From Candidatus Bathyarchaeota archaeon (GTDB lineage: Archaea > Thermoproteota > Bathyarchaeia > Bathyarchaeales > Bathycorpusculaceae), in NCBI GenBank assembly GCA_963768425.1, contig CAVYHV010000014.1, positions 160,001 to 224,000 on the forward strand: a DNA stretch of 64,000 nucleotides, in the 5' to 3' direction. The position numbers and the translations under genes were made by a program. The notes beneath the pieces are model-generated. The model worked only from the letters and a program-made list of their open reading frames with translations, did not search any database and had not been told where the DNA came from. Shown here piece by piece: positions 18,946 through 33,390 of the stretch; position 1 is the first letter of the stretch; each line of letters begins with the position of its first letter.

Positions 18946-19115
18946 CTAAAAACAAACTCCACTATTTTGTTAGCACTAAGTTATATTTAAGCTTCAAATA
19001 TCGCTTTGGAATTATACTTAGCTGCCTAATCAGTCGATGCCCAAAGCCAAACCCGACATTAAGCGCGTGATGAGTTAAAGATAAAAGCGACAGATGTTTT
19101 GGAGTTACTATCGGG

Positions 19116-19388: not shown

Positions 19389-19627
19389 GATCCATTCAGT
19401 TTTGAGTTTGGGCGCGGGTTTTTTCACGAAATCACCTATATGGGTTGCTTTCATAACACACGTTTTAATTGTAGCACAAAAAAGATGATTATTTTGGTTT
19501 TTCTGAACATGACTTTGCAGTAACGCCGCACAAACCAATGAATGCATCAAAGGCGCGCATTTGCAACAGATCAGGATTTTTCAACAATGACTTTAATCAT
19601 TTCTTCTGAAGCTGCAATACCGTTAAC

Positions 19628-20530
19628 TCATCGAATTCGTAGATCCTTTTTTCTTTCTATTAAGTCTGTAATTTCGTCAAATTCGCTAGTGTAGTCTTTG
19701 TGTTCTTTAACCAATCTTTTGAGTCTGTTTTGGTTAAAGTAGCCTTCATAAAATCCGAAGAACATGATCGCAAAGAACCCATACACAAGATAGTTGCCAA
19801 AAGCTGCAACGCCTTGCGAAACAACTAAGAGTAAAATTGGAAAAAGTACACCGAGAGAACCAATATAAGCCGACATTGATCAAATTAGAGCACCCATAAC
19901 ATCAATCTTGTTATCATTTATGCTCTTGGCGAGACCTGCTTTTCGTTCCCAAAGAGTTGATGTATCACTGAAGTCAACTGCACTAAACAGACTATCAAAA
20001 GCTCCAATCGAAATATTGTTTGTTCGACTTTTGAATGCGCTGTTCATTTTTAGATGATAGAACTCTCGATGCTCCTGATATTCACGCTTTATAATTGTAG
20101 CATCAATATACGGTGTCCTTCTAACCATGCGGAAAGCATACTTAACGTTTTCAACAAACTTTTTACCGACCAGTTCTTGTTCAGCTTTTCTTGCAGCACG
20201 TGCCTCATTAAGTATATCTTGTTTTTCTTCTTCCTTCAAAATTTGTTTTTCTTTAGTTGTCATAATTTTGTGCGAAAATCGATGATTGTTAGAACATTTG
20301 TAAATTATAGTAGAAACCGGAGGAGGTACATATAATTCTGCGACTTTTTCTGCGCAATATGGGCAAATATATCCAGAATCGTGCCAATCTGGGTCTTCAT
20401 CTATCTCCTTGTTATTATCTTTCTCCCACTGTTTTATCCAATGCCTTGTTTGTCCCCAGCCACCGCTCAAACTTGGATACAGAACTTTCGAATCTTTTAT
20501 CGCTTGCATGATATCTGCTTCTGTTCGCAC
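19628..20530 (-). CDS. Hypothetical AT-rich zinc-finger/membrane protein (split near 19878)
   Basis: CPYC...CSNNH in 19880-20530; TM helices in 19628-19876. Confidence 0.5.
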
Positions 20531-20719
20531 TTGATTTTTTTCAACTTTTCTATTGTGAGTTCTTCTGGTTTTTCTTCATTCTGTATTGTTTGTTTTCTCT
20601 TCTTTCGTCGCAGACTGTTTTGTTTTGCTCATTTTCTTTTCCTCTACATTTAAATAATATCGTTAAGGAATAGACTTTTTTCTTTTTGGTTATTTGAAAA
20701 AACTAAATTTCCTCTGATC

Positions 20720-20818
20720 TTAACTGCAGCTTGATTCCTCAACCAACAAATTAACACTACGAATTGAGTTCAACCACAAGTTATTCGGATTGCCTTTAAA
20801 ACTAAAAACTGTCCCCAT
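20720..20818 (-). CDS. Possible leaderless 32-aa peptide behind dyad copy 1
   Basis: MGTVFSFKGNPNNLWLNSIRSVNLLVEESSCS; ATG 22 nt from the motif/TATA. Confidence 0.3.
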   Translation of the reverse strand: MGTVFSFKGNPNNLWLNSIRSVNLLVEESSCS

Positions 20819-20839
20819 ACGATCTAATGTTTAAAAAAT

Positions 20840-20876
20840 CTATTTAAACGTCTGTGACTGTTAAGTACCATCCACA
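20840..20876 (-). promoter_or_regulatory. Dyad + TATA promoter element, copy 1
   Basis: TGTGGATGG TACTTA ACAGTCACA GA CGTTTAAATAG. Confidence 0.8.
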
Positions 20877-21047
20877 ATAAGGGTTAGCTCTTATTTTGTT
20901 TCTTTCTTTGCTACAATTTGTTTCTTATACGATTCGCGCAAACAAGAATAACAAGACATTAAGTCTGACCCTCCTTCACCTGAATTACCAAAAAATAGAT
21001 AATGAAAAAATTGAAGTAGGATCAAATTCATTTATAGGCATCGTATA

Positions 21048-21363
21048 TTACGTTTTCTTAATCATCACTGCAATAAGTCCAATTAGTCCTCCGAGAACAA
21101 CAAGCATTCCGCCAAGTCCACCGCCAATGATTCCAACGATTATGAGTACGATTGCCCAAACGATGATGTGTTACGCTTTTTGAGCCAATGATCGCGATGA
21201 TACCACAAATGATAGAAACAATTCCGAAGTAAGCGAAGCCAAACGATATAAATGATCCAAAGTAACTGAAATCATAACCAATGAGCGAAAGCAATCCGAA
21301 AATTACCAGCAGTATTCCGCCAATGAACGCTAAGTAGTAGGCTATTCGAGAAATTTCTGACAT
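21048..21363 (-). CDS. Small Gly-rich multi-TM membrane protein (frameshift near 21170)
   Basis: MSEISRIAYYLAFIGGILLVIFG...; continues WAIVLIIVGIIGGGLGG in another frame; GAGGTGA SD. Confidence 0.7.
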
Positions 21364-21590
21364 ATTCAAATTCACCTCCCTCAATCACTAAGTAAGGGCT
21401 TAAGATTCAGTTTAGGGCAGGCATATCCTGAATTTTAGACGCAAAGCACTTTTCACTTGCTTTGGCTTGAGACGAATTTTGCATAGTCTGACGCCTTATT
21501 GATCATTTTTCCGAAGGAGATATTTTAGGAGCAGAATCTGTGTTGCTTGCAGAATCTTTGTTTGTTGTTTGGTTAACGTTTTTTTTGGCG

Positions 21591-21749
21591 TTATATTCTT
21601 CGTCCTGAAACTAATCGGACAAGTATTATGAGGATGGCGATGACAAGAAGCAACCAAATGATGGCACCAAGATTGAAGAAGACAAAACCAAGAAGCCACA
21701 GAATGATAAGGATTGCAGCAACTACGAAAAGTAAATCAAGTAAGCCCAT
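21591..21749 (-). CDS. lmo0937/DUF5670-like small membrane protein (52 aa)
   Basis: Manual translation MGLLDLLFVVAAILIILWLLGFVFFNLGAIIWLLLVIAILIILVRLVSGRRI; GTGAGGT SD. Confidence 0.8.
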   Translation of the reverse strand: MGLLDLLFVVAAILIILWLLGFVFFNLGAIIWLLLVIAILIILVRLVSGRRI

Positions 21750-21786
21750 TTTTCAAAAACCTCACTTACAATTAACTCGGCAGAGC

Positions 21787-21823
21787 CTATTTTAAGATGT
21801 GTGACTGTGGATAACCAGCCACA
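21787..21823 (-). promoter_or_regulatory. Dyad + TATA promoter element, copy 2
   Basis: TGTGGCTGG TTATCC ACAGTCACA CA TCTTAAAATAG; 38 nt before ATG 21749. Confidence 0.88.
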
Positions 21824-22238
21824 GCTTTAGCGTGTTATTTACTCTTTTGGAATCACAAATGTGAGTTTTTGAATTGTTTCCGGGTTCAATTTATTTCAAA
21901 CGTCAAGATAGTATTTTGTTTGTTTAATTGGCTATAGTTAGATTTTTTGAGAATTTCTTTAATGAAAAGAGAGAAGCAAAAGTCACTATGAAAAACATTC
22001 AACAACTAAGACAATCAAACGCACGAGTTGTTAAATTTAAATATTAAAAAGGTATACCTGAAATTTAGTCATCCGACGAGAATGATTGAAGAATTTTAAG
22101 CTCAAATGAGTTGGACTTGAATTGCGAGAATGCGGTATTTGTAGTTAATTGATCTGCAATAATTGAAAACATGTTAAAAGTGGAGTTAATGCGCCGGCTA
22201 GGAACCGTGTCTGTAACTGACGAATTCTGAGGCTGATC

Positions 22239-22944
22239 TCATAAAGGATTGCGAGCTGATTCTAGGAAAATTCTTTTAAGAATGGTCGCGCCATCGCTTA
22301 CCTTCAATTTTTTCTCTCCAAGTCTCATTCTATACTTAATAGGTACTTCAACAATTCCAAAGCTTCTTCGTTCTACTTCACTATTTAGTTCCACTTCTAT
22401 ATCAAAACCTTTTGACTTTACATGCCAATCTCTTAGGATTTCAGCGCGAATTGCCCGCAGTCCTGTCAGCGGATCTTGCATGTTTACCCCATTGAGTAAG
22501 CTATGAGAGAAAGCTAAAAGCTTGTTTCCCAAATAGAACAAGTTACGCAATGCACTTCTCTTCGGCGTAGCCATTAAACCTGTTTCCGCAAACCATGCCG
22601 ACCTCTGGGTGGTTATCGAGAATCTGGATCATTTTAGGGATATACTCCGCAGGATAAGTGAAGTCCGCATCTGTAACAACAACATAGTCTACATCGGAAT
22701 CTATGTACCTCATAGCTTTCAAGATGGCGTCGCCTTTTCCTAAGCCATCCTGAAATAGAATGTGTGCACCCAAATCTTTGGCAATTTCAACTGTCCGATC
22801 ATTGCTGTGCCCATCAACCACTAAAATCTGGTTAGGATTAATGTTTTGCGAAATCTCCTTTAACGTAAGACCTATACCTTCCTCTTCATTCAACGCTGCA
22901 ATTACGACGTCAGCGGAACATCTACTATCAAACTCTTTACTCAA
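22239..22944 (-). CDS. GT2 glycosyltransferase, DPM1-like (frameshift near 22560)
   Basis: IAALNEEEGI, VVDGHSNDRT, GLGKGDA, TDADFTYP, QDPLTGLRA, GFDIEVE. Confidence 0.9.
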
Positions 22945-23121
22945 TTAGTTCTTCATCTTAAGCTATTTTTCAAGTTAACTGACATGTTTAACCAATTTTT
23001 CTTTTTCAAAAGTGGACTAAAATTACAAAAAAGAGAGTTCGAATGAATAAATTAAGTCTCAACGCTCATTTACCCTTCTTTATGGCTCGTGATTTGAGCT
23101 ACTTTATATATAGTCATTGGC

Positions 23122-23158
23122 AGAGTTAAACTCGTGTGACTGTGAGCTCACACCGACA
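23122..23158 (-). promoter_or_regulatory. Dyad + TATA promoter element, copy 3
   Basis: TGTCGGTGT GAGCTC ACAGTCACA CG AGTTTAACTCT; ~180 nt upstream of the GT2 start. Confidence 0.8.
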
Positions 23159-23242
23159 TTCTGACTTTTATGTTGAGCTAAATAGTCCAAGTGCTGTGAT
23201 GAAACTGAAACTCGAAACTAAAGAAGAAATGATTGCTTCAGA

Positions 23243-24030
23243 TTAGTCTTCAGCTTTTTTCCAGTCGGATTCAAAACCTGTTCTGAGTACGCCTATAAGG
23301 TTGCTGTTGTTTGTCCAAAGAGAAGGACTTTCGCCTAATCCCGTTTCTTTAGAGGTAGTAATCAATGCTTCTTTATCATCAGACATTATGAAGTGATTCA
23401 AAGGTTCACGATGAAACTTGACATGAACCGAAGTGCCATCGATAAGTTTTTTCACTTTTTCTTTGAGCAAAACGTCAGGGCTTTCTCCTTCAAAAATTAG
23501 TCAAATCTGAGCTGCCTTTCTTTATTGCTTGCTTACATTCATCTGAAAACTGAGACAAAATCGGTATAATTCTTGCCTTGTCTGCAATCAACGCGACTTC
23601 TTTTCTCGAGTTTCTAATCAGTTCTGAAGTCTTTGCTAAAATTGCTTTCTTTTCCGCTATCAGTATGTAGATGCTTTCTTCTCCAGGAACCGGCTGTTTC
23701 CAATCCTTAAGGGACAGCCTCTGGACACTACTCCTCATACCCGTCAACCGATCATCAGATTTGTCTTTTTTCTTCCGCCACCAGAAAGCTTAAGGCATCC
23801 GAAATAGGAGTAGCCCGGACCTCAGCTGGTTTACCCATTAATCTTTCAATCAGGCCCATTTTTTCAAGTGACGGCAAAATTCTATAGACGTCTTCTCTGC
23901 GCACTTTTGAAAACTTCGCTACTTGTCCTACCGTAGTTTTTTCCAGCTTAAGTATTGCTAAGTAAACCCTTGCCTGATTAAGACTCAAACCCAAACCAAG
24001 CAAAAGATCCGTGTTTTCATCGTTTGACAT
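23243..24030 (-). CDS. trmB: TrmB-family transcriptional regulator (two frameshifts)
   Basis: LGLSLNQARVYLAIL...SKVRREDVYRILPSLEKMGLIE wHTH; C-terminal FIMSDDKEALI...SLWTNN domain. Confidence 0.88.
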
Positions 24031-24044
24031 TCTCTATTCATGCA

Positions 24045-24069
24045 ATATAAAGATAGCTATCTAATATAT
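24045..24069. promoter_or_regulatory. Palindrome in the trmB upstream region
   Basis: Perfect AGATAGCTATCT (24051-24062) in AT-rich symmetric flanks, 21-32 nt upstream of the trmB ATG. Confidence 0.4.
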
Positions 24070-24552
24070 TTATTCAATTGGTATATCACTCTGCTTGATT
24101 AGGTAGATATCAGATCCAACTAGTCTCATACTAATAGTTTCTTTTTTAAATTTAGTATACTCTGGAAGTGTAGCCATCTTAACTCCCTTAATGATGATCT
24201 CCTTTCCTTCTTTGGTCTTCTTTACTTCTTTCTTAGATAGATCATAGCCATGTGTACGTGCAAATTCCTTTAAATATCGATCAAGTATTGGATAGACCTT
24301 TCTTACCAGTGCTTTCCTCTCTTTCAGATTTAGATTACTAAAGTTCTCTAATTGGAACACTTTCTCAAGGTTTAATCTATAGGCATTCCTTGACATCTTA
24401 CCTACTAGCTTTATAGCAGCAGCTAGATTAGAGTATTTAGGTTCTTTTCCTTTCCTTATAGTCTTTATTGATTCCACAGGTACGATATCAGCGAATAACT
24501 CTTCCTTAAGTTTACTTAGCTGTATCTTTATCTGTAGTGTTATCTGTAGCAT
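24070..24552 (-). CDS. AT-rich, Lys-rich hypothetical protein (foreign-looking)
   Basis: 160-aa ORF with visibly lower GC than neighbours. Confidence 0.5.
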   Translation of the reverse strand: MLQITLQIKIQLSKLKEELFADIVPVESIKTIRKGKEPKYSNLAAAIKLVGKMSRNAYRLNLEKVFQLENFSNLNLKERKALVRKVYPILDRYLKEFARTHGYDLSKKEVKKTKEGKEIIIKGVKMATLPEYTKFKKETISMRLVGSDIYLIKQSDIPIE

Positions 24553-25227
24553 TAATTAAAGAATCAGACTCTAGTCTTTTTTTCTTTTCTCTTCTTTATT
24601 TTTGACATTTCAAAGCCATAGGATACTATTCTCTATACTGTGGTACTTAAGCATATGGATATGGTCTACATTGCTTAGACAACAAATAGAGTATAGAAAA
24701 AGACTCAGGATATTTTACTAAACTGTCGGATCTGTTGTTAAACTACATATCGCGCGCAGCATGTCAGAGGAATTGATCCCTTTCTGCTTTGTTCGCGTGT
24801 CAATATTATGTTCGATGGGAGGAGCACTTTTTCCAGTTCTTTGAGACCTTTGAGTACTAAAACACCTCGGGGAGTAATCTCGTAGACAATTCTTCCTTCC
24901 TTTACAGACTCTCTCCAATTAAACCCTGTTTGAATAGAACCTCGACAAATTCACTGAATGTTTTGGAGTTGACGAACCTTTTGCATGCATTTATATCTAA
25001 AATTTTTAGCAATTTTCAGAAAATTGCAAGGCTATATCCGTTTTTCGAATATTTGATTTGTCTTGATTTTGAAGGTTTCTCTTGTTAAAGAAGGAGAAAA
25101 ATTTGCTTAGTAATCTGAAGGAGGTTCAACTAAAATCCGATGGAAAAATTTTGAGACGTGTGTTATAGCAATTTCAGAATTACTTAATCGATTGCTCTAT
25201 TCGATTTAAATAAAAGGGATATTCGGC

Positions 25228-25572
25228 TTACGAGAGTACGAAGCCGATGATTATGCCTATTACGAATCCAATGCTTAGTGGTAGTATGCCTATGATGAGT
25301 GCACCGTATTGATACACAATTGACCCGTATTGAGTTGCATAATTTTTCAACGAACTAAGACTTAAACCGAAAAAGCCGAAGTAGGCAACTACGAAGAGTA
25401 TAATTGCAGCTATAATGGCAATCTTTAGGAATAAATGGATTAGATACCCCACAATCAATCCGACGACAAATATTATTATCATTAAGACAATGGGTGGCAA
25501 ACCACCTATGCTTCCAGAAGTAATAAAATGAAATACTTGATCTATCGCGCCCAAAATCCACAACTCCATCAA
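25228..25572 (-). CDS. Small multi-TM membrane protein (probably leaderless)
   Basis: GLIVGYLIHLFLKIAIIAAIILFVVAYFG...LPLSIGFVIGIIIG, loosely FUN14-like; start 24-27 nt from motif copy 4. Confidence 0.7.
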   Translation of the reverse strand: MMELWILGAIDQVFHFITSGSIGGLPPIVLMIIIFVVGLIVGYLIHLFLKIAIIAAIILFVVAYFGFFGLSLSSLKNYATQYGSIVYQYGALIIGILPLSIGFVIGIIIGFVLS

Positions 25573-25595
25573 TTAAGTTAATAGAGTTTAAAATA

Positions 25596-25633
25596 GCTAT
25601 TAAACTTGTGTGAGCTGTAGCCCCACATCAACA
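25596..25633 (-). promoter_or_regulatory. Dyad + TATA promoter element, copy 4 (1-nt insertion)
   Basis: TGTTGATGT GGGGCT ACAGCTCACA CA AGTTTAATAGC. Confidence 0.72.
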
Positions 25634-25723
25634 AAGCGTTATGCTGCTTGAAAAGTCAAGGTATGATTCAGAGCCCAAAAACTGTGAGATTATTCTATAA
25701 GCAAAACCTGGTTGATGCTCAAA

Positions 25724-25760
25724 TGTTGCTGTGGCTTCACAGTCACACACACTTAATTCT
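25724..25760 (+). promoter_or_regulatory. Dyad + TATA promoter element, copy 5 (divergent from copy 4)
   Basis: TGTTGCTGT GGCTTC ACAGTCACA CA CACTTAATTCT; 35 nt before ATG 25795. Confidence 0.85.
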
Positions 25761-25794
25761 GCAATAAACGACCTTTAGATGGAAGGTGATAGGA

Positions 25795-25932
25795 ATGCCT
25801 GAAGAGAAGAAAAAAGTTGAAAATGCTGCTGAAAAAACTGGAGAAGCAGTCGGCAAAGGCATCAAGAAAGGTGCTAAAGCAGTCGAGGACTTCGGGAAAG
25901 GAATAAAGAAAGAACTCAAGAAAAAAGAATAA
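25795..25932 (+). CDS. 45-aa hydrophilic amphipathic (LEA/YtxH-like) protein
   Basis: Manual translation MPEEKKKVENAAEKTGEAVGKGIKKGAKAVEDFGKGIKKELKKKE; AGGTGAT SD. Confidence 0.8.
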   Translation: MPEEKKKVENAAEKTGEAVGKGIKKGAKAVEDFGKGIKKELKKKE

Positions 25933-26253
25933 AGACAAAATCTCCTGTGGAAAACCCGAAGAAGCGGCGAATCTTGTAGACTGGACGAGAAACTGGCGAA
26001 AACAATTCTGAGAATACAGTTTAGCGCATAACCTGTTCTTCAGAAAATATTTAGTAGCTGCCACTCGCAGTTTCCTGTTCTTCTTTTCTATACTAGCTCT
26101 TCTTCTTCCTTAAATCGTTTCGGTCGGGGGTCTATCTCTACAGTTTAGACTCAGGCAGCTCATTCTCGATCTCTTTTTTCCAATTCTTCAAGATTTTTGC
26201 AGCGAATGCATACGTAACGCTTCTGGTTTACTTGAGATACTGTTTACCTGACA

Positions 26254-26502
26254 TCAGAGCGTTTCTACTTCAACCTCTTTATCATTCAGCATTCTCATGA
26301 ATCGTCCTCCTTCGTGAACTATCTCTCCTACAATTGCCTTATTGGTCTCCAAGAATAAGTGCCATGCATTTATGCAGGTCTCTATTACCAAGTAAACTTT
26401 CTGATACGATTGAGAAATAACATGCAATCGTATTTCTGCTACTCGATTGTTCAACTCTTCCTGTTTCGTGAAATCCATGGATTTCCCTATAACCTCCGTC
26501 AT
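26254..26502 (-). CDS. Hypothetical protein or fragment
   Basis: 82-aa ORF only. Confidence 0.3.
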   Translation of the reverse strand: MTEVIGKSMDFTKQEELNNRVAEIRLHVISQSYQKVYLVIETCINAWHLFLETNKAIVGEIVHEGGRFMRMLNDKEVEVETL

Positions 26503-26972
26503 TTCAATCAGACTTTTTTTTTATAATTTGCCTGTCCCTATTTGAAATTCCGATTTTTGTACACCAAAGTAGTTGGTAACCTTCAAGGGAAAATTTGCTC
26601 AACAAACATCACCTATACAATACATGTAACTGGCAATTATTAATTAGCTTATTCTTTATTTTCGTTTCACTCTAAATAGTTGTAGTTGGTGCTTTAACCA
26701 CAAGATTACCTGATTTTCAGCTCGGTGTCGCTTTTTGTTGTTGGCAACAGCAGAATAAACATTGGACTGAGCAGAAGCCCTAACCGGAAACGAATAACCG
26801 TTTCGTTACAATTTATAGAAAACCATTGAGAATACCCTTCAGGGCTTGTAACTTCTTGAAAAAATCGCAAGTTTTTCTTCTGAATAAAAGCATAAGCATC
26901 AGAATCTCCAATAGTCCCCTGCTCGGCCGCAAAAAACAGAAAACAAAAAGCTGCTAAACTACAACAGTTTAA

Positions 26973-27790
26973 TTGAATGTCTGGGAGAAAGGCCACTTGG
27001 CGATTATTGCTGTTTCAGACTTGCACCTAGGATTCGATGCCTCTGACAAGGCTGCGTTTACCCGCTTCCTCGGAAACCTTCAATCCGACCCCAGCGTTAC
27101 AGACCTCGTCCTTCTCGGCGACATCGTGGACATGTGGAGACGAGATTCATCAGGCATTTTCCTCGAGAACCATGATGTTCTCGACCTTATCAACGAACTA
27201 CAAGAAGAAGATGCGCATATATTACGTTGCAGGAAACAATGATTTCCACGTCCGCAAGCTACAAGGCCTAGGATACCCAATCAACTTCATTAATGGACCT
27301 GAAGCTTCAGCAAGACGGCCTGAATCGCAGGTTTGTTCACGGCTGGGAGTTTGACGAGATGCAGAGGAAGCACTTCATGGAATCGCTGTGCCACTCAATG
27401 TCTGATCAGAAGGGCGAACGCGACACTAACATTTGGGCTGCTCTTGGCCGTTACGAAAATGACCTGTCTCGTTTTTTCTCCATGATTGATCGGGGAAGAA
27501 AACGCCAAATCGCTGAGATGTTCCGGCTAGGTCCAGAGCAGAGGCTCATAGAAAACCTGAAAGGTGTAGAAAGAAAGGCCCGTTCCACAGTTCAGCCCAG
27601 GGAAGTTCTTGTCTTCGGGCACACCCACAGACCCTTCGTGAACAAGGCCGAGAACCTCGCAAATACCGGCTCATGGGTTACAGACTGCGCCTATCCACAA
27701 TACATATGTGCGGATAGAAGGTGGCAAACCCAGGCTATTCGTGTTCAAAGGAGCCGAGATAACGGAAAGAGCCGACATCTAACTATCACT
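26973..27790 (+). CDS. Calcineurin-like metallophosphoesterase (frameshifted, end approximate)
   Basis: VSDLHLG, LLGDIVDMW, YVAGNND, FVHG, VFGHTHRP, ANTGSW spread over three frames. Confidence 0.88.
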
Positions 27791-27844
27791 TCCATTTTTC
27801 TGCGGCTAAGAGTATGCGCGCTGCCCTGTTCTGATATTATGTAT

Positions 27845-28235
27845 TGAAGTAGGCAGGTCTCTTCTATGATCTTGTTTAGGTTGTCTTCTCCAACTTTTCG
27901 GATGAACCTGCTAAGAACACTTCTTGTGTAGCCTTTCTCATCTTTCTTGATTAAACACAGTTTTCTAAGCCTTGGATCGGTGTCGAGTAGGCATGTCATT
28001 TCGCTTAGACTGCGAACACCCTTCATGCACATGACAATGAAGGTTCTGAAAAGTCCCAGGGGATTTCTGGAGGGACTGCCTGGCCCAGAAGAGTGAAAGC
28101 AATCTTTCAAAACGTTTTGTGCAAAAATTAGGTCGATATTTTCAAAGAGAATTTCAAGAATTTTATGTTCATCTTGTCCCGCCAGAATGCAGCGCCTAAG
28201 CTTGGACTCAAACTCGTAAAATACGATAGTCCAAT
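27845..28235 (-). mobile_element. Truncated transposase fragment (DUF772-type N-terminus, IS5/IS1182-like)
   Basis: GPGSPSRNPLGLFRTFIV...RSLSEMTCLLDTD...RSVLSRF; no DDE domain seen. Confidence 0.65.
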
Positions 28236-28269
28236 TACTCTTATTAATTTAAGGACAAGCCAGCGCGCT

Positions 28270-28306
28270 TGTAGTTGTAGTTCTACAGTCACAAACCGTT
28301 AAGTAG
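28270..28306 (+). promoter_or_regulatory. Dyad + TATA promoter element, copy 6
   Basis: TGTAGTTGT AGTTCT ACAGTCACA AA CCGTTAAGTAG; 46 nt before ATG 28352. Confidence 0.85.
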
Positions 28307-28351
28307 AATTGAAAAGACATTGGGTCAGTCATACGAGAGGTGATTGGATAA

Positions 28352-28471
28352 ATGAGGTTTTTGCATAATAACAAAGGTGGTTTAGGTAGTTGGCTCTGGT
28401 CCGCTATTGTAGTAGTAGTATTAATAATAGTTCTTATCGTTGTTTTGAGATTTCTTTTTCATTTGATATAA
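28352..28471 (+). CDS. 39-aa single-TM peptide
   Basis: Manual translation MRFLHNNKGGLGSWLWSAIVVVVLIIVLIVVLRFLFHLI; GAGGTGAT SD. Confidence 0.75.
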   Translation: MRFLHNNKGGLGSWLWSAIVVVVLIIVLIVVLRFLFHLI

Positions 28472-28789
28472 AGGGAAGCTAAGATAAAGATTACAACCTA
28501 ATCTTTAGCTTACCCTATCTGTTTGTTTTTTATGTTGTTGTGTCGTTTTGTGTGTGTGGATTAAATTTTAATCTTTCTCTCTCTGAAACTTACGAATTAC
28601 TAAACTTAACGACGACCTTACTCTCACTGTACTAACCCTTAAGCAAACCCACAACTACACGAAGCGACACCCAAAAGACGGAAAAGACAGTGAGACCTCC
28701 GCTTAGCAGTTGTGCAGTAGTTCTTCGATCTCTTGAAAAACTATTTCAACTGACTATCGGAAGCCTTGAACAGCTGGTTTTACGCTTTG

Positions 28790-28954
28790 TTAGAGTTTTC
28801 TTTTGGCTTTGCCTAAGTCTTCTTCGATTTTCCCTTTTACTTTCTCAGCTTCGCCCTTAATTATTTGACCTGTGTTGCCAGTAATTTTGGCCCCGCCTTC
28901 GCGGATTTTGCCTTGGTCCTTTTTGAGTTTACCTTTAACTTCTTCTTCGCTCAT
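28790..28954 (-). CDS. CsbD-like general stress protein (54 aa)
   Basis: Manual translation MSEEEVKGKLKKDQGKIREGGAKITGNTGQIIKGEAEKVKGKIEEDLGKAKRKL; GGTGA SD. Confidence 0.82.
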   Translation of the reverse strand: MSEEEVKGKLKKDQGKIREGGAKITGNTGQIIKGEAEKVKGKIEEDLGKAKRKL

Positions 28955-28987
28955 AAAATTTCACCAAAAGAATAGAGTCTCTGCGAT

Positions 28988-29024
28988 TTTATTAAGCGTA
29001 TGTGTATGGTGCTTAACACTCACA
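28988..29024 (-). promoter_or_regulatory. Dyad + TATA promoter element, copy 7 (degenerate right arm)
   Basis: TGTGAGTGT TAAGCA CCATACACA TA CGCTTAATAAA; 34 nt before the CsbD-like ATG. Confidence 0.68.
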
Positions 29025-29894
29025 ATGATGAACATAGCCTTCGCAATGTACGCTGATCAACGATTGCTTTTGGGCCTTCCAAAAACTTACATCATAGAAG
29101 GGAAGAAGCCTATTCACGATTAAGCTAATCATCAGAACATATAAACAATAAATAATTTCTGGGTTGACTTGTTCTTTGTCACAACCCGCGGAAGGCCTTT
29201 GCCCTTGCAGTGTACGCTGAGTTAACTACCATCACAATACAAGCGCGCCTATCAGCATAATAAGGCCTGCAGTTAAGGATGAACATAAAGTTAAAGTAAT
29301 AGCATAATAACAATCACCTAAGCTTTCATCAGCAAGATATGCAAATCATCTTATTATTCCGAGAAGTGTTCCGAGACCAAGATACATTATCATGTCCCAA
29401 TTTGTAAAATTGTAAGCACAGAAAGAAACGCCAAGTGCCATTGTGTTAGCGAATGTTATTAGTCTGCGCGCGTGCTCACAATAAATTAACGTTACATACA
29501 ATTACAGAAGTGCGTGCCGGCCTGTTGCAGAATTCCAAAGAAAGAGAGATTTTGATAAATTTAGGTTTATTCTTGATATTCATCTGGATTCTTTTGACAG
29601 GAAGATATTTGATATTCTCAAAGAGAAAGATCAGCTTCTCACCCTACCCGAGTTAGGAGAGGACTCAGAGTTTGCCTTTCAACTGTCATGATCCATCTGG
29701 AGTGGCTTGGTCTAACCATATCTACAGAATATTCTATGATTTGTTTCATAAGTATGAGCGCATTCTCAATTCGTCAGGGAGAAGTCTGCAGTTAAGATTT
29801 CGTTGAGTTGGCGATGCGATTTTGAACCGTTTCGGATAGCTTTTTCCTCAAGTTTTCATCGTCGTGGGTCCATACATTGATCTGGTCAATTCTC

Positions 29895-30569
29895 TTAAGC
29901 TAGTTCTTCATCACCAATAACGTTTATGAACCATCTTTGAAAGTCTTGACGCTGAAAATGAAACGTGACAGACTGAATGGGTACTATTTGGAGTTTTTCG
30001 GCGAACTCAATTGTGTTACTTGCAGTTATTCCAGTATTTTTTCCGAGCGCAATGTAAAATTGAAAGCTTTTTTCAAAGGGAACGGTGTTGATTAGGTTTA
30101 GCGGTAGGAATGGAGTATTCAACTTTTTCCCCAGCTCTATCGCCCATTCCTTCACTCTACCCATGTTCAGATCGTCCATGATGGTTCTATTTTGGCTAAT
30201 CATGCAGCCTCCAAAACCAGCAACGTCAATAAGCTTGAGAGACTTATTTTTAGCCAGTAATTTTTTTTGGTTGGCTTCAGTATTTAGCGCTTTCGCGTCT
30301 TCCTTATTCTCGCATAAGAAATAGAGCGCGACATTTTTGCCTTCAAAGTCCTTCTCCATAAAATCCACAGCTTCGTTGTAAACGCTGTTTCCAGCCCCAC
30401 CGCCAACAATAATGTTTTGGAATGATGCAATGTCCGCTGGACCCTTGCTAAGATCCGCGAGAGTTGCATCCATGTTGTAGGTTGTTTTGAGGGTGTCAGC
30501 TATGGTATGTGCTACTTGTTCATTTAATCCACTTATTGTCGAAAAAACTATTAGGGTTTTTCCCGTCAT
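29895..30569 (-). CDS. Flavodoxin-like domain fused to DUF5752-like domain (C-terminus probably continues past a frameshift)
   Basis: KTLIVFSTISGLNEQVA flavodoxin start; FQFY...SVTFHFQRQDFQRWFINVIGDEELA. Confidence 0.75.
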   Translation of the reverse strand: MTGKTLIVFSTISGLNEQVAHTIADTLKTTYNMDATLADLSKGPADIASFQNIIVGGGAGNSVYNEAVDFMEKDFEGKNVALYFLCENKEDAKALNTEANQKKLLAKNKSLKLIDVAGFGGCMISQNRTIMDDLNMGRVKEWAIELGKKLNTPFLPLNLINTVPFEKSFQFYIALGKNTGITASNTIEFAEKLQIVPIQSVTFHFQRQDFQRWFINVIGDEELA

Positions 30570-30609
30570 TGTTCTTCACTTTCCTTATATCACATTTAAC
30601 ACGCACGCT

Positions 30610-30646
30610 TAATTTTAAGATGTGTGACTGGGAATAAACAGCTACA
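30610..30646 (-). promoter_or_regulatory. Dyad + TATA promoter element, copy 8
   Basis: TGTAGCTGT TTATTC CCAGTCACA CA TCTTAAAATTA; 41 nt before ATG 30569. Confidence 0.88.
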
Positions 30647-30846
30647 CCTGCACTGGCGATTGCGTTAAGTAAGCTTTTTTTATGTTTAGCTTCTGCCCAT
30701 CTTGCGAGTAAGGTTATTGACACCTTCTTGTTTATCATACATGAGCTTCAAACTTTTGTCTTAAATAGCGAAATTAAGTGAATAAGCTAAAATATGCCAT
30801 TAAAATATGTTTGAATATTCTTGCACTATGACTATTTATTCAATTT

Positions 30847-31173
30847 TTAAGATTTCAATTGCTTTCTTATGATGATGAAAAGCGCCAAAAGGAGCAGTGC
30901 GCCAATGACGCCTGAGGTGATACCTGTGATGTACCAAGCTTCCCACGGAGGCATGAAAGTCATAAGGTACTTCAGTGACCCGATGAGGATAAATAGGGAA
31001 GCAGACCCTATGAATGAAATTACCAGGGAAACCAAGATGCTAATAATTACACTTGTTATGAGAATTTTTTTGAGGCGTTTCTTAAGTTCACCCTGTTGTT
31101 CATGTACATATTCTCTTATAACGGCTTTTATCTCATTGAAGAAAGACTCGATAATTTCCTTTATTGTGGGCAA
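30847..31173 (-). CDS. Holin-like/YqjE-like two-TM membrane protein
   Basis: Charged N-terminal helix, then two TMs with the ...MPPWEAWYITG pattern. Confidence 0.6.
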   Translation of the reverse strand: MPTIKEIIESFFNEIKAVIREYVHEQQGELKKRLKKILITSVIISILVSLVISFIGSASLFILIGSLKYLMTFMPPWEAWYITGITSGVIGALLLLALFIIIRKQLKS

Positions 31174-31231
31174 TTAATTCTTCCTTCTTCGTCCAAAGAG
31201 AGCAGATTGTCAGCCAATTCTATCAAAATCT

Positions 31232-31459
31232 TCATTGATTGTGGACGTTTATTGTTCCTTGTGGCTTTGCTGACTTGAATAAATAATATCCGTACAGGAA
31301 CAGGAAGAGTGCTATTACTAAACTGCCTAGTCCTAATGGGAGAACAAGGCTTGTTGCAATGAATTTAAAAACTCTTAAGAGTACTGCAAGTCCAAAAAAT
31401 ACTATCAGAACTGCTAATATACAGATTCCTACACCGCCAATCCAACTTCCAAATCCCAT
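31232..31459 (-). CDS. Small two-TM membrane protein
   Basis: 75-aa hydrophobic ORF with AGGTGG SD, behind the lmo0937-like paralog. Confidence 0.65.
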   Translation of the reverse strand: MGFGSWIGGVGICILAVLIVFFGLAVLLRVFKFIATSLVLPLGLGSLVIALFLFLYGYYLFKSAKPQGTINVHNQ

Positions 31460-31513
31460 ATTTTTCCACCTTTACCCCATTTATTTCTTCTCTTGATTGT
31501 CCAATGTTATTTT

Positions 31514-31666
31514 TTACGTCCTGAAAGCTAGTCGTGCAACTATTATGCTTATGGCTGTGACAGGCAGAACCCATATTATGGTGCCTAGGTTAAAAAAAAC
31601 AAAACCAAGGAGCCAAAAGTTAACAAGTATCCCAGCGACTAAGAAAAGTGAATTAAGTAATCCCAT
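31514..31666 (-). CDS. Second, diverged lmo0937-like paralog (50 aa)
   Basis: Manual translation MGLLNSLFLVAGILVNFWLLGFVFFNLGTIIWVLPVTAISIIVARLAFRT; aligns with 21591-21749. Confidence 0.7.
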   Translation of the reverse strand: MGLLNSLFLVAGILVNFWLLGFVFFNLGTIIWVLPVTAISIIVARLAFRT

Positions 31667-31700
31667 TCCAACGTCTCACTTACCATTAACTTGGTAGAGC

Positions 31701-31737
31701 CTATTTTAAGATGTGTGACTGTGAACAAACAGCTACA
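31701..31737 (-). promoter_or_regulatory. Dyad + TATA promoter element, copy 9
   Basis: TGTAGCTGT TTGTTC ACAGTCACA CA TCTTAAAATAG; 35 nt before ATG 31666. Confidence 0.88.
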
Positions 31738-31779
31738 GTTTCATCACTTTCTCTTTATACTAAGATTAATCTATTAGGC

Positions 31780-31905
31780 CTATCTTGACTTTTGTCTTTC
31801 AGCCCTATCAAGTTTCTTCTTCTTGCGGGCATCTTCTCGCTCTTTCTTTTTTCGAGGCTGAGGTTTTCCCCGATCTTGTTCGCCTGTTTCTCCTTTCTTA
31901 CTCAT
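31780..31905 (-). CDS. 41-aa highly basic protein
   Basis: Manual translation MSKKGETGEQDRGKPQPRKKKEREDARKKKKLDRAERQKSR; AGGAG SD. Confidence 0.6.
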   Translation of the reverse strand: MSKKGETGEQDRGKPQPRKKKEREDARKKKKLDRAERQKSR

Positions 31906-32062
31906 CTAACAATCTCCTTATGATGAAGAAACGGCTGTAAGCTTTGCAATCCCGTTTCTTTTCTTTTGTAATTTAAGTGAATACAGTTTTTTATGAGTTG
32001 TGGCGAAAAGAATCCCTAAGAGCCCAGAAAAACCAAAAAAGAACGTACAATACAAAAGAAAG

Positions 32063-33022: not shown

Positions 33023-33390
33023 GATTTAATCCCTGTTTATTTGCCCAGAATCGTCACTGAATCACTTAATGCCCTTCAAAGCTTAGAAAAGTGATAATGC
33101 GATCCTCGCATTCTAACTACGTGTAGATACATCTATTATAAAGGACTTTGCTATCAAATAACAAGATTTGGCATGCCACTACTAGCATCCGGCCTACAGC
33201 GCGGCTGAGAAAACGAGACATGCTACTGAACTGTGTATTCTTTTGATTAGCTTGCGAAATTCAAAAAACATTGAAAAACCAACCGGACGTCTGCAGACAA
33301 AAAGCCGCTTTAGAGTATTTACCCGGTAGTTTTCTAACATAATTCTTAATTACTGCGTCTTCATTGGGTTTGGCTTGAGGAATTTAAAAA

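What the first reader, a model, noticed from the sequence alone, without database searches (positions are those of the whole stretch)
20840..31737. Nine-copy 24-bp dyad fixed against the TATA box: candidate undescribed archaeal general-stress regulon
Seen: consensus TGTNGNTGT-N6-ACAGTCACA, an imperfect inverted repeat of TGTGACTGT, at 20840, 21787, 23122, 25596, 28988, 30610 and 31701 (minus strand) and 25724 and 28270 (plus strand). Every copy is intergenic and lies 4-5 bp upstream of a TTAA TATA-like core; eight point at a start codon 22-46 nt away. I found no full copy elsewhere in the window by eye. Known: archaeal activators (Ptr2/Lrp, TrmB-family Tgr/TrmBL1, TFB-RF1) bind just upstream of BRE/TATA, and this motif differs from the Thermococcales TGM (TATCAC-N5-GTGATA). 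Inference: a dimeric factor covering the BRE position co-activates a physically clustered set of stress microproteins, a functional analogue of the SigB regulon. Copies 2 and 9 derive from one duplication, so about eight are independent.
Basis: partly seen in the sequence, partly recalled or inferred. Interest (0 to 1): 0.92.

Follow-up and report, generated by a model that had tools for sequence, protein, structure and literature searches.

The report
Stress regulon operator beside TATA boxes
A 24-base palindromic DNA signal sits at a fixed distance in front of the TATA box of about thirty stress-protection genes in an uncultured peat archaeon (Bathyarchaeia) and many of its relatives, marking a conserved and so far undescribed gene-control circuit of a familiar type.

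Summary
The dyad TGTNNNTG(T)-N6-ACAGTCACA lies at nine intergenic places in window 20853-31737: seven strong copies and two degenerate ones. Each stands 4-5 nt upstream of a TTAA/TTTAA box.

It is not confined to the window. The genome, a Bathyarchaeia MAG, holds 29 loci at one mismatch or fewer, 28 of them intergenic, against 1 hit for a reversed control. The strict pattern occurs in 41 of 151 genomes of the family, with 0 control hits. It is also patchily present in other Bathyarchaeia families.

In 92 unique sites from 12 genomes, TTAA sits at +6 to +9 in about 87%.

Target genes are stress genes: SOD, MsrA, ferritin, multicopper oxidase, CsbD, DUF5670, KGG, a DEAD helicase, and an unknown 90-aa family, "U90", which is the most constant target.

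I read the dyad as the site of a dimeric winged-helix regulator acting on TBP/TFB, probably as an activator.

- **Best candidate:** a TrmB-like subfamily. One copy lies in the window at 23243-24030 and carries two frameshifts. The TrmB+MEDS forms carry the dyad 2-50 nt upstream of their own start in 7 of 7 cases.
- **Rival:** an HTH_45 protein, 11 of 11 orthologues preceded by the dyad.

Neither candidate covers all motif-bearing genomes. This is a new variant of a known kind.

The parts
20853..20876 (-). Dyad copy 1 (TGTGGATGGTACTTAACAGTCACA). The TATA-like TTTAAATA lies at 20841-20848. Only a doubtful 32-aa ORF (20720-20818) follows.
   Evidence: 1 mismatch.
21800..21823 (-). Dyad copy 2, with TTAAAATA at 21788-21795. 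It fronts a DUF5670 gene (21591-21749) and a 108-aa membrane ORF (21058-21384).
   Evidence: Pfam DUF5670 at 32 bits against a cut-off of 23.5. The 76-nt promoter is duplicated at 31666-31741.
23135..23158 (-). Dyad copy 3, with TTTAACTC at 23123-23130. It fronts a split family-2 glycosyltransferase (22543-22944 and 22239-22574), 190 nt away. It lies about 85 nt downstream of the stop of the TrmB-like gene.
   Evidence: The same layout, TrmB-like gene then a dyad roughly 80-110 nt past its stop, occurs at 9 loci in 7 other genomes.
23243..24030 (-). TrmB-like regulator gene, short form: the candidate binder. It reads in three frames because of two 1-nt insertions near 23765 (in an A-run) and 23513.
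   Evidence: Pfam TrmB HTH at 59 bits. It is 78-92% identical, segment by segment, to intact 261-aa orthologues. The insertions appear against 3 orthologues. The recognition-helix stretch KVRREDVYRILP is shared with the TrmB+MEDS forms.
25609..25633 (-). Dyad copy 9, degenerate with a one-base insertion in the proximal half. TTTAATAG lies at 25597-25604. It fronts a 114-aa membrane ORF (25228-25572).
   Evidence: The gapless search did not find it.
25724..25747 (+). Dyad copy 4, with TTAATTCT at 25753-25760. It fronts a 45-48-aa Lys/Glu-rich ORF (25786-25932).
   Evidence: 0 mismatches. The same promoter and ORF are conserved in G013.
28270..28293 (+). Dyad copy 5, with TTAAGTAG at 28299-28306. 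It fronts a 39-aa membrane ORF (28352-28471) preceded by GAGGTGAT.
   Evidence: 0 mismatches. It is conserved in G013.
29001..29024 (-). Dyad copy 6, weak. TTAATAAA lies at 28988-28995. It fronts a CsbD-like gene (28790-28954).
   Evidence: 3 mismatches on the + reading. Pfam CsbD scores 32.2 bits, below the cut-off of 40.
30623..30646 (-). Dyad copy 7, with TTAAAATT at 30611-30618. It fronts a 224-aa flavodoxin-like gene (29895-30569).
   Evidence: 1 mismatch. Pfam Flavodoxin_5 scores 23.2 bits, below the cut-off of 27. Paralogues behind dyads occur in G013. Metatranscriptome contigs cover the gene.
31714..31737 (-). Dyad copy 8, with TTAAAATA at 31702-31709. It fronts a second DUF5670-like gene (31514-31666), a 75-aa membrane ORF (31232-31459) and a Holin-X-like 108-aa ORF (30847-31173).
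   Evidence: 0 mismatches.

Best explanation
The 24-bp dyad is the operator of a dimeric winged-helix transcription factor. Its general form is TGT-N3-TGT-N6-ACA-N3-ACA and its best-conserved core is GACTGT-N6-ACAGTC. The factor controls a conserved stress-protection regulon in part of the Bathyarchaeia.

The TATA-proximal half ends 5 nt before a TTAA/TTTAA TATA box. The factor therefore sits where the BRE begins, centred about 47 nt upstream of the expected start site. From there it most likely helps TBP/TFB onto promoters that lack the usual A-rich BRE, that is, it activates. Where a TATA box stands on both sides, one dyad serves two divergent genes.

The most likely binder is a TrmB-like subfamily with the recognition helix KVRREDVYRILP. 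It comes in two forms: a 261-aa short form, encoded inside the window island at 23243-24030 but frameshifted in this assembly, and a roughly 476-aa TrmB+MEDS form in other genera. The long form's own start codon lies 2-50 nt behind a dyad whose TATA side faces away. That is the position of a repressor site, so it would repress its own gene while switching on the divergent one.

**Shown**
- The motif, its phasing, its restriction to intergenic DNA, its conservation, its gene set, and its linkage to the TF genes.

**Inferred**
- Binding itself.
- The sign of regulation.
- The signal. The gene set suggests oxidative or general stress.
- Which protein binds.
For: **The motif is real**
- Window: 11 matches against 0.42 expected.
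- Genome: 29 loci at one mismatch or fewer, 28 of them intergenic, in a genome that is at least 74% coding by a crude ORF mask. The reversed pattern gives 1 hit.

**Conservation**
- The strict pattern with TTAA occurs in 19 of 24 other genomes of the genus and 0 of 16 genomes from other families of the order. Control hits are 0.
- The strict pattern occurs in 41 of 151 genomes of the family and 24 of 70 genera. Control hits are 0.
- At class level it occurs in 24 of 301 genomes, with 2 control hits.

**Phasing**
- Among 92 unique sites from 12 genomes, TT stands at +6/+7 in 82 and 80, and A at +8 in 80.
- The offset to TT[TA]A is 4-5 nt in 71.
- A mirrored box stands 5 nt to the left in 15.
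- The box matches the genome's general TATA-like words: TAAATA, TTAAAT and TTTATA are 5.8-6.6-fold enriched upstream of long ORFs.
- General promoters are A-rich at -6 to -3 before the box. The dyad promoters have ACA-YA-NN there.

**Gene set**
-. It includes SOD, PMSR, ferritin, Cu-oxidase, Pyr_redox_2, CMD, glyoxalase, FMN_red, nitroreductase, KGG, CsbD-like, DUF5670, DUF1508, a DEAD helicase and fasciclin.
- U90: all 19 loci scoring 65 bits or more have a dyad at 2 mismatches or fewer within 400 nt upstream, and 16 of 19 have it at 61-91 nt.

**TrmB link**
- The long form has a dyad 2-50 nt upstream of its start in G060, G080, G063, G058, G098 and G042, and 23 nt upstream in G364, which belongs to another family. 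The eighth long form, in G119, is cut by a contig end.
- The short form has a dyad roughly 80-110 nt past its stop at 9 loci in 7 genomes, and in the window.
- Control: paralogous TrmB genes have no proper dyad nearby, in 0 of 14 and 0 of 15 loci.
- Domains were confirmed.

**Precedent (passages read)**
- TrmBL1 activates when its site lies upstream of BRE/TATA and represses when downstream. At one promoter region it may do both (PMC4706686).
- OxsR is a TrmB-family activator of an oxidative-stress set, acting through a motif upstream of BRE/TATA (PMC9426492).

**Spacing**
- The core half-sites are 12 bp apart centre to centre. The TGM half-sites are 11 bp apart, from the consensus.
Against: - No binding, start-site or expression-change data exist. 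The RNA runs were contigs and cannot show starts.
- The TrmB subfamily was not found in several motif-rich genomes: G017, G061, G087, G123, G134, G178 and G270, which has 14 sites. These include genomes 93-97% complete.
- The window's own copy has two frameshifts. It may be a pseudogene, although many genes in this assembly look frameshifted.
- The short form has a dyad upstream in the same orientation at only 3 of 11 loci, so its self-regulation is not supported. Its link to the motif is by neighbourhood.
- A site touching the BRE could equally block TFB, that is, repress.
- Gene calls here are crude ORF calls. Some small targets may not be genes.
Confidence: 0.55

Rival explanations
1. Same operator, opposite sign. 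The factor is a repressor whose proximal half-site covers the start of the BRE and keeps TFB off. Stress releases it and the whole set is de-repressed, including its own divergent gene.
For: The dyad ends 5 nt before the TATA box and so overlaps the BRE zone. Pyrococcus TrmB represses by covering BRE/TATA, as stated in the background of PMC4706686. A divergent regulator and target sharing one operator is a common repressor layout, and U90 and TrmB+MEDS are arranged that way in G060 and G098.
Against: Steric repressors tolerate many positions. In TrmBL1, 20 of 27 site-bearing units have the site downstream of the promoter. Here 71 of 92 sites sit at one offset upstream of the box and only 1 lies closer than 4 nt. 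These promoters lack the A-rich BRE of the genome's general promoters, which fits a need for help.
Confidence: 0.25
2. The binder is the small HTH_45 winged-helix protein, not the TrmB-like protein. It regulates itself from a dyad promoter. The TrmB-like genes are only members or neighbours of the regulon.
For: An orthologue group scoring above 100 bits occurs in 11 of 151 family genomes. All 11 are motif-positive, and all 11 have a dyad 150-200 nt upstream of the matched domain. G317 and G000 C1:47077-47238 show the same. It is the only motif-linked TF found in G017, G061, G087, G123, G134 and G178. Pfam HTH_45 scores 70-77 bits.
Against: The orthologue was not found in G013, G058, G119, G169 and G186. 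The 30 paralogue loci examined there, of 37 matches, had no dyad. It was not found in G364, G389 or G270 either. Its dyad lies in the ordinary target position, upstream of a TATA box, as for any regulon member. The G000 copy is frameshifted.
Confidence: 0.22
3. A third factor, not yet identified, binds the dyad, possibly the unknown U90 protein itself. Both winged-helix genes would then be mere targets.
For: Neither TF covers all 17 genomes with 5 or more strict sites. TrmB covers 11, HTH_45 covers 10 counting the frameshifted G000 copy, and their union covers 17. U90 covers 14 of 17 and is present in distant G270, which lacks both TFs at my thresholds. U90 always carries the dyad.
Against: U90 has no recognisable DNA-binding fold. 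The AF2 model has pLDDT 72.5, and neither Foldseek nor a profile search of the PDB found a meaningful match. Its conserved core is strongly acidic. U90 is missing from motif-rich G017, G116 and G172.
Confidence: 0.12
4. The proximal half is an extended BRE read by a specialised TFB paralogue. G000 has five TFB-like loci, one of them next to the island.
For: G000 has 5 TFB-like loci. Two lie within about 1.3 kb of a dyad: window 32063-33022 and C6:148573-149502.
Against: TFB-like matches number about 2 per genome whether or not the motif is present. For example, G060, G061, G087, G116 and G186 have 2 each. The distal half-site is conserved where no TATA box stands on that side, which a TFB contact would not explain. 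The stress island is not kept next to TFB in relatives: the closest TFB loci, L013-L017, have no dyad within 10 kb.
Confidence: 0.03
5. The copies are remnants of a repeated or mobile promoter cassette, not independent regulatory sites.
For: Copies 2 and 8 lie in a duplicated 76-nt segment that is 84% identical, and copy 7 resembles it at 64%. The island has low G+C (0.36-0.39 against 0.44) and a transposase fragment.
Against: Outside the dyad and the TATA box, the spacers and flanks differ. No other direct-repeat family was found in 20000-32500. The dyad is kept in front of orthologues across genera while the flanks diverge.
Confidence: 0.02

Closest known systems
TrmBL1/Tgr and the Thermococcales glycolytic motif (TGM, TATCAC-N5-GTGATA)
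   Same: A TrmB-family dimer binds a palindrome with half-sites about 11-12 bp apart. A site upstream of BRE/TATA activates and a site downstream represses, and one site can repress one direction while enhancing the other (PMC4706686, passages read). In T. kodakarensis the regulator gene's own promoter carries the motif, according to the same paper's discussion.
   Different: The sequence differs (GACTGT-N6-ACAGTC with outer TGT/ACA). The regulon holds stress-protection genes, not sugar metabolism. Almost all sites sit at one fixed offset from the TATA box, rather than mostly downstream. The lineage is Bathyarchaeia. A MEDS domain is fused in the long form.
OxsR of Haloferax volcanii (TrmB-family thiol-based oxidative-stress regulator)
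   Same: It has a TrmB-type winged helix. A semi-palindromic motif placed 5' of BRE/TATA activates an oxidative-stress set, and a 3' placement represses (PMC9426492, abstract and passages read).
   Different: OxsR is a single-domain protein that needs Cys24 and uses a CG-rich motif, CGGnCGnGCG. The short form here has an extra C-terminal domain and no conserved cysteine in 6 aligned orthologues. The motif is unrelated.
Ptr2 and TFB-RF1 (archaeal activators that recruit TBP or TFB)
   Same: The site lies directly upstream of a promoter with weak core elements. I know them from recall and from one sentence in the discussion of PMC4706686.
   Different: They belong to different protein families (Lrp-type and others). 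No genome-wide, strictly phased regulon is reported for them as far as I recall. I did not read the primary papers.
Bacterial SigB general-stress regulon
   Same: The content overlaps: CsbD-like, KGG (YciG/GsiB-type repeat), DUF5670 (lmo0937-type) and DUF1508 small proteins, together with oxidative-stress enzymes. That these belong to SigB regulons is recalled, not tested here.
   Different: The mechanism differs entirely. Archaea have no sigma factor, and here a transcription-factor operator stands next to a TATA box.

Membership tests
TrmB family of archaeal regulators (window gene 23243-24030) | N-terminal TrmB winged-helix domain (PF01978) | tested here: met
   59.2 bits against a cut-off of 25.6 for window 23755-24030. 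The intact orthologue scores 51.8 bits.
TrmB family of archaeal regulators (window gene 23243-24030) | C-terminal effector domain (PF11495, Regulator_TrmB) | tested here: inconclusive
   The short-form orthologue scores 18.1 bits, below the cut-off of 22.2. The long forms score 23.2 and 34.3 bits, above it.
TrmB family of archaeal regulators (window gene 23243-24030) | Intact reading frame | tested here: not met
   There are two 1-nt insertions relative to 3 orthologues, at about 23765 and 23513, and the gene reads in three frames. I could not tell whether these are assembly errors or real.
TrmB family of archaeal regulators (window gene 23243-24030) | Dimer binding to a palindromic operator | not testable with these tools
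   Inferred only from gene-to-site linkage.
TGM regulon (Tgr/TrmBL1) | Motif TATCAC-N5-GTGATA | tested here: not met
   The consensus here is TGTNNCTGT-N6-ACAGTCACA. The TGM consensus was read in PMC4706686.
OxsR-type thiol switch | Single-domain TrmB protein with a conserved N-terminal cysteine | tested here: not met
   The proteins have 261 or about 476 aa and further domains. No cysteine is conserved across the 6 short forms aligned.
MEDS-domain sensors (long form in other genera) | PF14417 MEDS domain | tested here: met
   114 and 107.6 bits against a cut-off of 29.8 in the G063 and G058 proteins. It is absent from the window's short form.
HTH_45 winged-helix proteins (rival regulator) | PF14947 domain | tested here: met
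   70.1 and 77.1 bits against a cut-off of 25.5.
Archaeal activator sites of the Ptr2 / TFB-RF1 / TrmBL1 type | Site directly upstream of BRE/TATA | tested here: met
   The offset to TT[TA]A is 4-5 nt in 71 of 92 sites. The box matches the genome's TATA-like words.
Archaeal activator sites of the Ptr2 / TFB-RF1 / TrmBL1 type | Stimulation of transcription by the bound factor | not testable with these tools
   No expression or in vitro data exist. The RNA runs were contigs only.
CsbD family (window 28790-28954) | PF05532 at or above the gathering score | tested here: not met
   32.2 bits against a cut-off of 40, E 1e-7, over 47 of 53 profile positions. It is CsbD-like, not a certified member.

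The most novel reading that the evidence does not exclude
The dyad plus TATA box forms a separate promoter class. A dedicated dimeric factor takes over the job of the BRE-TFB contact and sets the direction of transcription from a near-symmetric TATA box. It would be an archaeal counterpart of an alternative sigma factor for stress genes. The specificity factor, or an obligatory partner of it, would be the unknown, Bathyarchaeia-only U90 protein. U90 tracks the motif better than either winged-helix candidate and always carries the dyad itself.
Probability: 0.1. Interest if true: 0.85.

Novelty: new variant of a known kind. Interest (0 to 1): 0.55.

Why it matters
Bathyarchaeia are among the most abundant uncultured archaea in sediments and peat, and nothing experimental is known about how they regulate genes. 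This finding gives four things:

- a precise, conserved cis-element;
- a defined regulon of about 20-30 promoters per genome;
- two concrete candidate regulators, cheap to test by EMSA or DAP-seq with synthetic genes;
- two protein families of unknown function, U90 and U100, now tied to a stress response.

The gene set (SOD, MsrA, ferritin, multicopper oxidase, flavodoxin-like and nitroreductase proteins) suggests how these anaerobes cope with oxygen pulses in peat. The regulon's patchy distribution would then mark which lineages have that ability.

The strict phasing with the TATA box, and the use of one dyad for two directions, make it a clean model for how archaeal activators talk to TBP/TFB.

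Tried and rejected
- I did not open any supplementary files of papers. The supplements of PMC4706686 and PMC9426492 (site lists) might refine the comparison of site positions.

**U90 and U100 structure and similarity**
- AF2 models have pLDDT 72.5 each.
- Foldseek against the PDB gave no match at E <= 0.001.
- A U90 profile against PDB sequences hit only designed TIM barrels over 18 residues.
- The ESM Atlas gave no usable hit.
- Their functions stay unknown.

**Complex prediction**
- I sent the MEDS domain of TrmB+MEDS with U90. The result was no verdict (score 0.02, below the mark). This is no evidence either way.

**TFB-paralogue idea**
- Rejected on copy numbers and on lack of synteny.

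**Rfam**
- No family in window 19000-33500.

**Sequencing runs**
- Peat-labelled DNA runs hold 0.26-0.37 of the sampled words, and three metatranscriptome runs hold 0.05-0.09.
- Laid as contigs, they cover parts of the island, including the flavodoxin-like gene, the CsbD-like gene and the TrmB-like gene. Most pieces are 90-95% alike, so they come from relatives.
- Contigs give no starts, strand or ranking. I draw no conclusion from uncovered parts.
- No indel inside 23243-24030 appeared among the indels shown, but 60 rows were not shown. The frameshift question stays open.

**Short-form TrmB self-regulation**
- A dyad stands upstream in only 3 of 11 loci, so I do not claim it.
- The 160-aa ORF upstream of the window's TrmB-like gene is conserved at only 3 of 15 loci searched.

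**Literature**
- Searches found no paper describing this motif or a Bathyarchaeia regulon.
- One search listed a Methanolobus start-site paper. I did not read it, because the organism turned out not to be a methanogen.

**Rows dropped or limits of counts**
-, 45 took at most the two longest ORFs of 45 aa or more (28 aa or more) starting within 330 nt of each strict site, so spurious ORFs are included.
- Searches list only part of their matches. I counted from the per-genome rows.
- The genome search scored only 10 of up to 38 first-look candidates per genome.

Full report
**1. What is in the window**

None of the 100 shuffles exceeded 3. All matches lie between 20853 and 31737.

Reading each copy on its own strand shows the same layout every time: TGTNNNTG(T), six variable bases, ACAGTCACA, four or five bases, then TTAA or TTTAA.

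A ninth copy at 25609-25633(-) has one extra base in the proximal half (ACAGcTCACA) and was missed by the gapless search. The CsbD copy (29001-29024) is also weak, with 3-4 mismatches. So there are seven strong and two degenerate copies.

Downstream ORFs:
- two DUF5670 microproteins
- a CsbD-like protein, below Pfam's cut-off
- a 224-aa flavodoxin-like protein, below the cut-off
- a Holin-X-like membrane protein
- several small membrane or Lys/Glu-rich ORFs
- a split family-2 glycosyltransferase

No Rfam family lies in the island.

**2. The organism and the genome-wide picture**

The window is part of a 2.96-Mb, 33-contig genome with 44% G+C. Relatives of the neighbouring TFB gene are all titled Bathyarchaeia/Bathyarchaeota MAGs.

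In the whole genome, the dyad at one mismatch or fewer (14 specified positions) occurs at 29 loci. Of these, 28 are intergenic, although at least 74% of the genome lies in long ORFs. The same pattern read backwards occurs once.

The window therefore holds the densest island, 9 loci in 11 kb, of a dispersed set.

Elsewhere in the genome the dyad precedes the following genes, all checked by Pfam:

| Target | Site quality | Place |
|---|---|---|
| DEAD-box helicase | perfect | C14:358353 |
| Peptide methionine sulfoxide reductase | 2 mismatches | not noted |
| KGG-repeat protein | 2 mismatches | not noted |
| Thermosome subunit | 2 mismatches | not noted |
| Nitroreductase | on the far side of an ACAATCACA-type site | not noted |

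It also precedes stand-alone Lrp/AsnC ligand-domain proteins, a second DUF5670/CsbD pair arranged divergently, and single-copy genes of two families without any Pfam match. I call these families U90 and U100.

**3. Conservation**

- The strict pattern followed by N5-TTAA is found in 19 of 24 other genomes of the genus and in 0 of 16 genomes of other families of the order. The reversed control gives 0 hits in all 41.
- The strict dyad alone is found in 41 of 151 genomes of the family (24 of 70 genera), up to 19 per genome, again with 0 control hits.
- In a draw of 301 genomes of the class it is found in 24, with 2 control hits:

| Family | Genomes with the dyad | Note |
|---|---|---|
| f1 | 16 of 48 | the window's own family |
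| f7 | 4 of 12 | |
| f11 | 1 of 16 | |
| f26 | 1 of 15 | |
| f31 | 1 of 10 | that genome has 14 sites |

The element is thus old or mobile within Bathyarchaeia, and patchy. Even within one genus, some nearly complete genomes have none (G120, G188, G050).

**4. Geometry**

I fetched about 1.2 kb around 83 strict sites of 11 other genomes and pooled them with the 12 strict sites of this genome. That gave 92 unique sites.

- Consensus: TGTtgcTGT-N6-ACAGTCACA-tA-NN-tTTAAaa.
- T stands at +6 in 82 and at +7 in 80 of 92. A stands at +8 in 80 and at +9 in 69.
- The first TT[TA]A starts 4 or 5 nt after the dyad in 71 of 92, closer than 4 nt in only 1, and is absent within 22 nt in 12.
- In 15 of 92 a mirrored box stands 5 nt to the left, so one dyad serves divergent promoters.
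- Where there is no box on the left, the distal half-site is still conserved. This argues for a dimer rather than an extended core-promoter element.

The box itself fits the genome's ordinary TATA-like words. TAAATA, TTAAAT, TTTATA and CTTAAA are 3.8-6.6-fold enriched at -70 to -15 of 1444 long ORFs with free upstream regions.

Ordinary promoters (184 with such a box) are A-rich at -6 to -3 before it, with A at 0.37-0.57, as expected of a BRE. The dyad promoters have ...CACA-YA-NN there. The factor would therefore sit on the upstream edge of the BRE.

**5. The regulon**

I took the two longest ORFs starting within 330 nt of each foreign strict site, 104 ORFs in all, some surely spurious, and tallied their Pfam families:

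| Pfam family | ORFs |
|---|---|
| Fasciclin | 4 |
| DUF1508 | 3 |
| Fe/Mn superoxide dismutase | 3 |
| HTH_45 | 3 |
| Multicopper oxidase | 3 |
| Lrp/AsnC ligand domain | 2 |

One ORF each matched Pyr_redox_2, ferritin/rubrerythrin, carboxymuconolactone decarboxylase (AhpD-like), glyoxalase, FMN reductase, flavodoxin and others.

The most constant target is U90. It is a roughly 88-aa protein with an acidic beta-beta-alpha-beta core and a basic tail.
- It is present in 27 of 151 family genomes.
- All 19 loci scoring 65 bits or more have a dyad at 2 mismatches or fewer within 400 nt upstream. In 16 of 19 the dyad lies 61-91 nt before the match.

Taken together, the set looks like protection against oxidative and general stress. 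That reading rests on the annotated families, not on expression data.

Contigs of three metatranscriptome runs cover parts of the island, among them the flavodoxin-like, CsbD-like and TrmB-like genes. Most pieces are 90-95% identical, so they come from relatives. Contigs show neither starts nor levels.

**6. Who binds: candidate A, a TrmB-like subfamily**

Inside the island, window 23243-24030(-) encodes a TrmB winged helix (59 bits). Read across three frames, it is 78-92% identical to intact 261-aa proteins of eight other genomes. Two single-base insertions, near 23765 in an A-run and near 23513, break it.

Other genera carry a longer relative of about 476 aa made of TrmB HTH + Regulator_TrmB + MEDS. 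Its recognition-helix stretch (KVRREDVYRILP) is the same as in the short form.

In every long-form gene whose 5' end is on the contig, a dyad lies just before the start codon, with its TATA side facing away:

| Genome | Distance from dyad to start codon |
|---|---|
| G058 | 2 nt |
| G063 | 11 nt |
| G080 | 16 nt |
| G098 | 30 nt |
| G060 | 43 nt |
| G042 | 50 nt; the genome has no strict site, and the copy here keeps the core GACTGT-N6-ACAGTC |
| G364 (family f7) | 23 nt |

In G060 and G098 the gene on the TATA side is U90.

The short form has a dyad roughly 80-110 nt after its stop, the promoter of the next gene, at 9 loci in 7 genomes and in the window. A dyad stands upstream at only 3 of 11 loci.

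As a control, TrmB paralogues have no proper dyad nearby: 0 of 14 loci scoring 100-140 bits to the long form, and 0 of 15 loci with 30-47% identity in the HTH.

**7. Who binds: candidate B, an HTH_45 protein**

A small winged-helix protein (PF14947, 70-77 bits) forms an orthologue group scoring above 100 bits in 11 of 151 family genomes. All 11 are motif-positive. All 11 have a dyad 150-200 nt before the matched domain, followed by TT-GTTTATGA. G317 shows the same. This genome's copy on contig C1 is frameshifted at an A-run.

**8. Neither candidate is sufficient**

Seventeen genomes have 5 or more strict sites.

| Factor | Genomes with it (of 17) |
|---|---|
| TrmB subfamily | 11 |
| HTH_45 orthologue (counting the frameshifted G000 copy) | 10 |
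| Either one | 17 |
| U90 | 14 |

- In G013, G058, G119, G169 and G186, none of the 30 HTH_45 paralogue loci examined carries a dyad.
- In G017, G061, G087, G123 and G134, no motif-linked TrmB exists.
- Distant G270 (14 sites, 89% complete) has five U90-like genes but neither TF at my thresholds.

I cannot explain this complementary pattern. The possibilities are that both proteins read the same dyad, that one is a target of the other, or that a third factor exists.

I prefer the TrmB-like protein for four reasons:
- its own gene sits in the classical self-repression position;
- this holds in a second family (f7) as well;
- the half-site spacing fits the family, 12 bp here against 11 bp in the TGM;
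- there is direct precedent.

**9. Comparison with what is known**

I read passages of two papers.

TrmBL1 of Pyrococcus binds the palindromic TGM. It represses when the site is downstream of the promoter and activates when it is upstream of BRE/TATA. At one region it may block one direction while enhancing the other (PMC4706686).

OxsR of Haloferax is a TrmB-family protein that activates an oxidative-stress set through a motif placed 5' of BRE/TATA (PMC9426492).

The present system works like these. It differs in the following ways:
- the sequence of the motif;
- the very strict phasing against the TATA box;
- the domain make-up, with a MEDS fusion;
- the lack of a conserved cysteine;
- the lineage;
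- a gene set that includes unknown families.

Four literature searches found no description of this motif or of any Bathyarchaeia regulon.

**10. Rivals tested**

A specialised TFB reading an extended BRE is unlikely. The genome does have five TFB-like loci, but family genomes have about two whether or not they carry the motif. The island is also not kept beside TFB in relatives.

A mobile promoter cassette is unlikely, because only the dyad and the box are shared.

Repression instead of activation remains a live alternative, as does an unidentified binder.

**11. Verdict**

It is wrong in scope, because the regulon is genome-wide and family-wide rather than a local cluster, and it overstated the novelty.

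This is a new variant of a known kind of archaeal regulation. It comes with concrete, cheap experiments and two orphan protein families attached.

Noticed in passing
window 32063-33022(-); G000 C6:148573-149502, C14:25017-25952, C18:25811-26485, C8:144047-144928: The genome has five TFB-like loci: four at 80-100% identity to each other and one at 46%. Most genomes of the family show two. I did not study the reason for the expansion.
   Followed up: partly
G000 C1:46577, C14:287922, C3:25611, C10:12491, C9:215607, C6:224080, C15:78367, C30:42722: A second flavour of the dyad exists: TGTTGCTGT-N6-ACAATCACA, followed by ATAGTATATTTA rather than N5-TTAA. Two copies front paralogous small Cys-rich proteins. 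It may be the same regulator with another spacing, or a related one.
   Followed up: no
window 20000-32000: The island has low G+C, 0.36-0.39 against 0.44 for the genome. It holds a DUF772 transposase fragment at 27745-28110. Several genes are read in pieces: the TrmB-like gene, the glycosyltransferase 22239-22944, and ORFs 26973-27847. The HTH_45 gene on C1 is also frameshifted. Either the assembly has indel errors or the island is decaying.
   Followed up: partly
L311:1477-1746 (G000 C10:48030-48299); alignment A1: U90 is a roughly 88-aa family found only in Bathyarchaeia-type metagenome proteins, with 208 relatives. It has no Pfam or PDB match. It has an acidic beta-beta-alpha-beta core, a basic tail and a conserved C-terminal VTAFYFDH. 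It always lies behind the dyad.
   Followed up: yes
G000 C6:150841-151143; alignment A2: U100 is a roughly 95-aa family with invariant FEPLAPTAI and RLGKFHY motifs. It has no Pfam match, and its generic alpha/beta model has no PDB match. It lies behind a dyad in 4 genomes and, in G000, 1.2 kb from a TFB paralogue.
   Followed up: partly
window 20720-20852: Dyad copy 1 has a good TATA-like box, but only a doubtful 32-aa ORF follows. The next long ORF (19880-20530) starts 323 nt away. There may be an unannotated small protein or a non-coding RNA here. Rfam finds nothing.
   Followed up: no
L273 (G042:C36), about 50 nt upstream of its TrmB+MEDS gene: This genome has no strict dyad anywhere. Even so, it keeps a relaxed copy (TTTGACTGT-N6-ACAGTCACG) in front of its 44%-identical TrmB+MEDS gene. 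This suggests that the regulator and its own site outlast the regulon, or that the motif has drifted there.
   Followed up: no
G013 contigs C38, C58, C5, C31 (loci L264, L275, L281, L283): The short TrmB-like gene occurs twice in G013, and both copies are cut at contig ends. Repeated copies of this island seem to break short-read assemblies, so absences in fragmented MAGs should be read with care.
   Followed up: no
window 29792-30457: Contigs of three metatranscriptome runs pile up on the flavodoxin-like gene far more than on its neighbours. Contig depth cannot rank genes, so this is only a hint that the gene is well expressed in peat.
   Followed up: no
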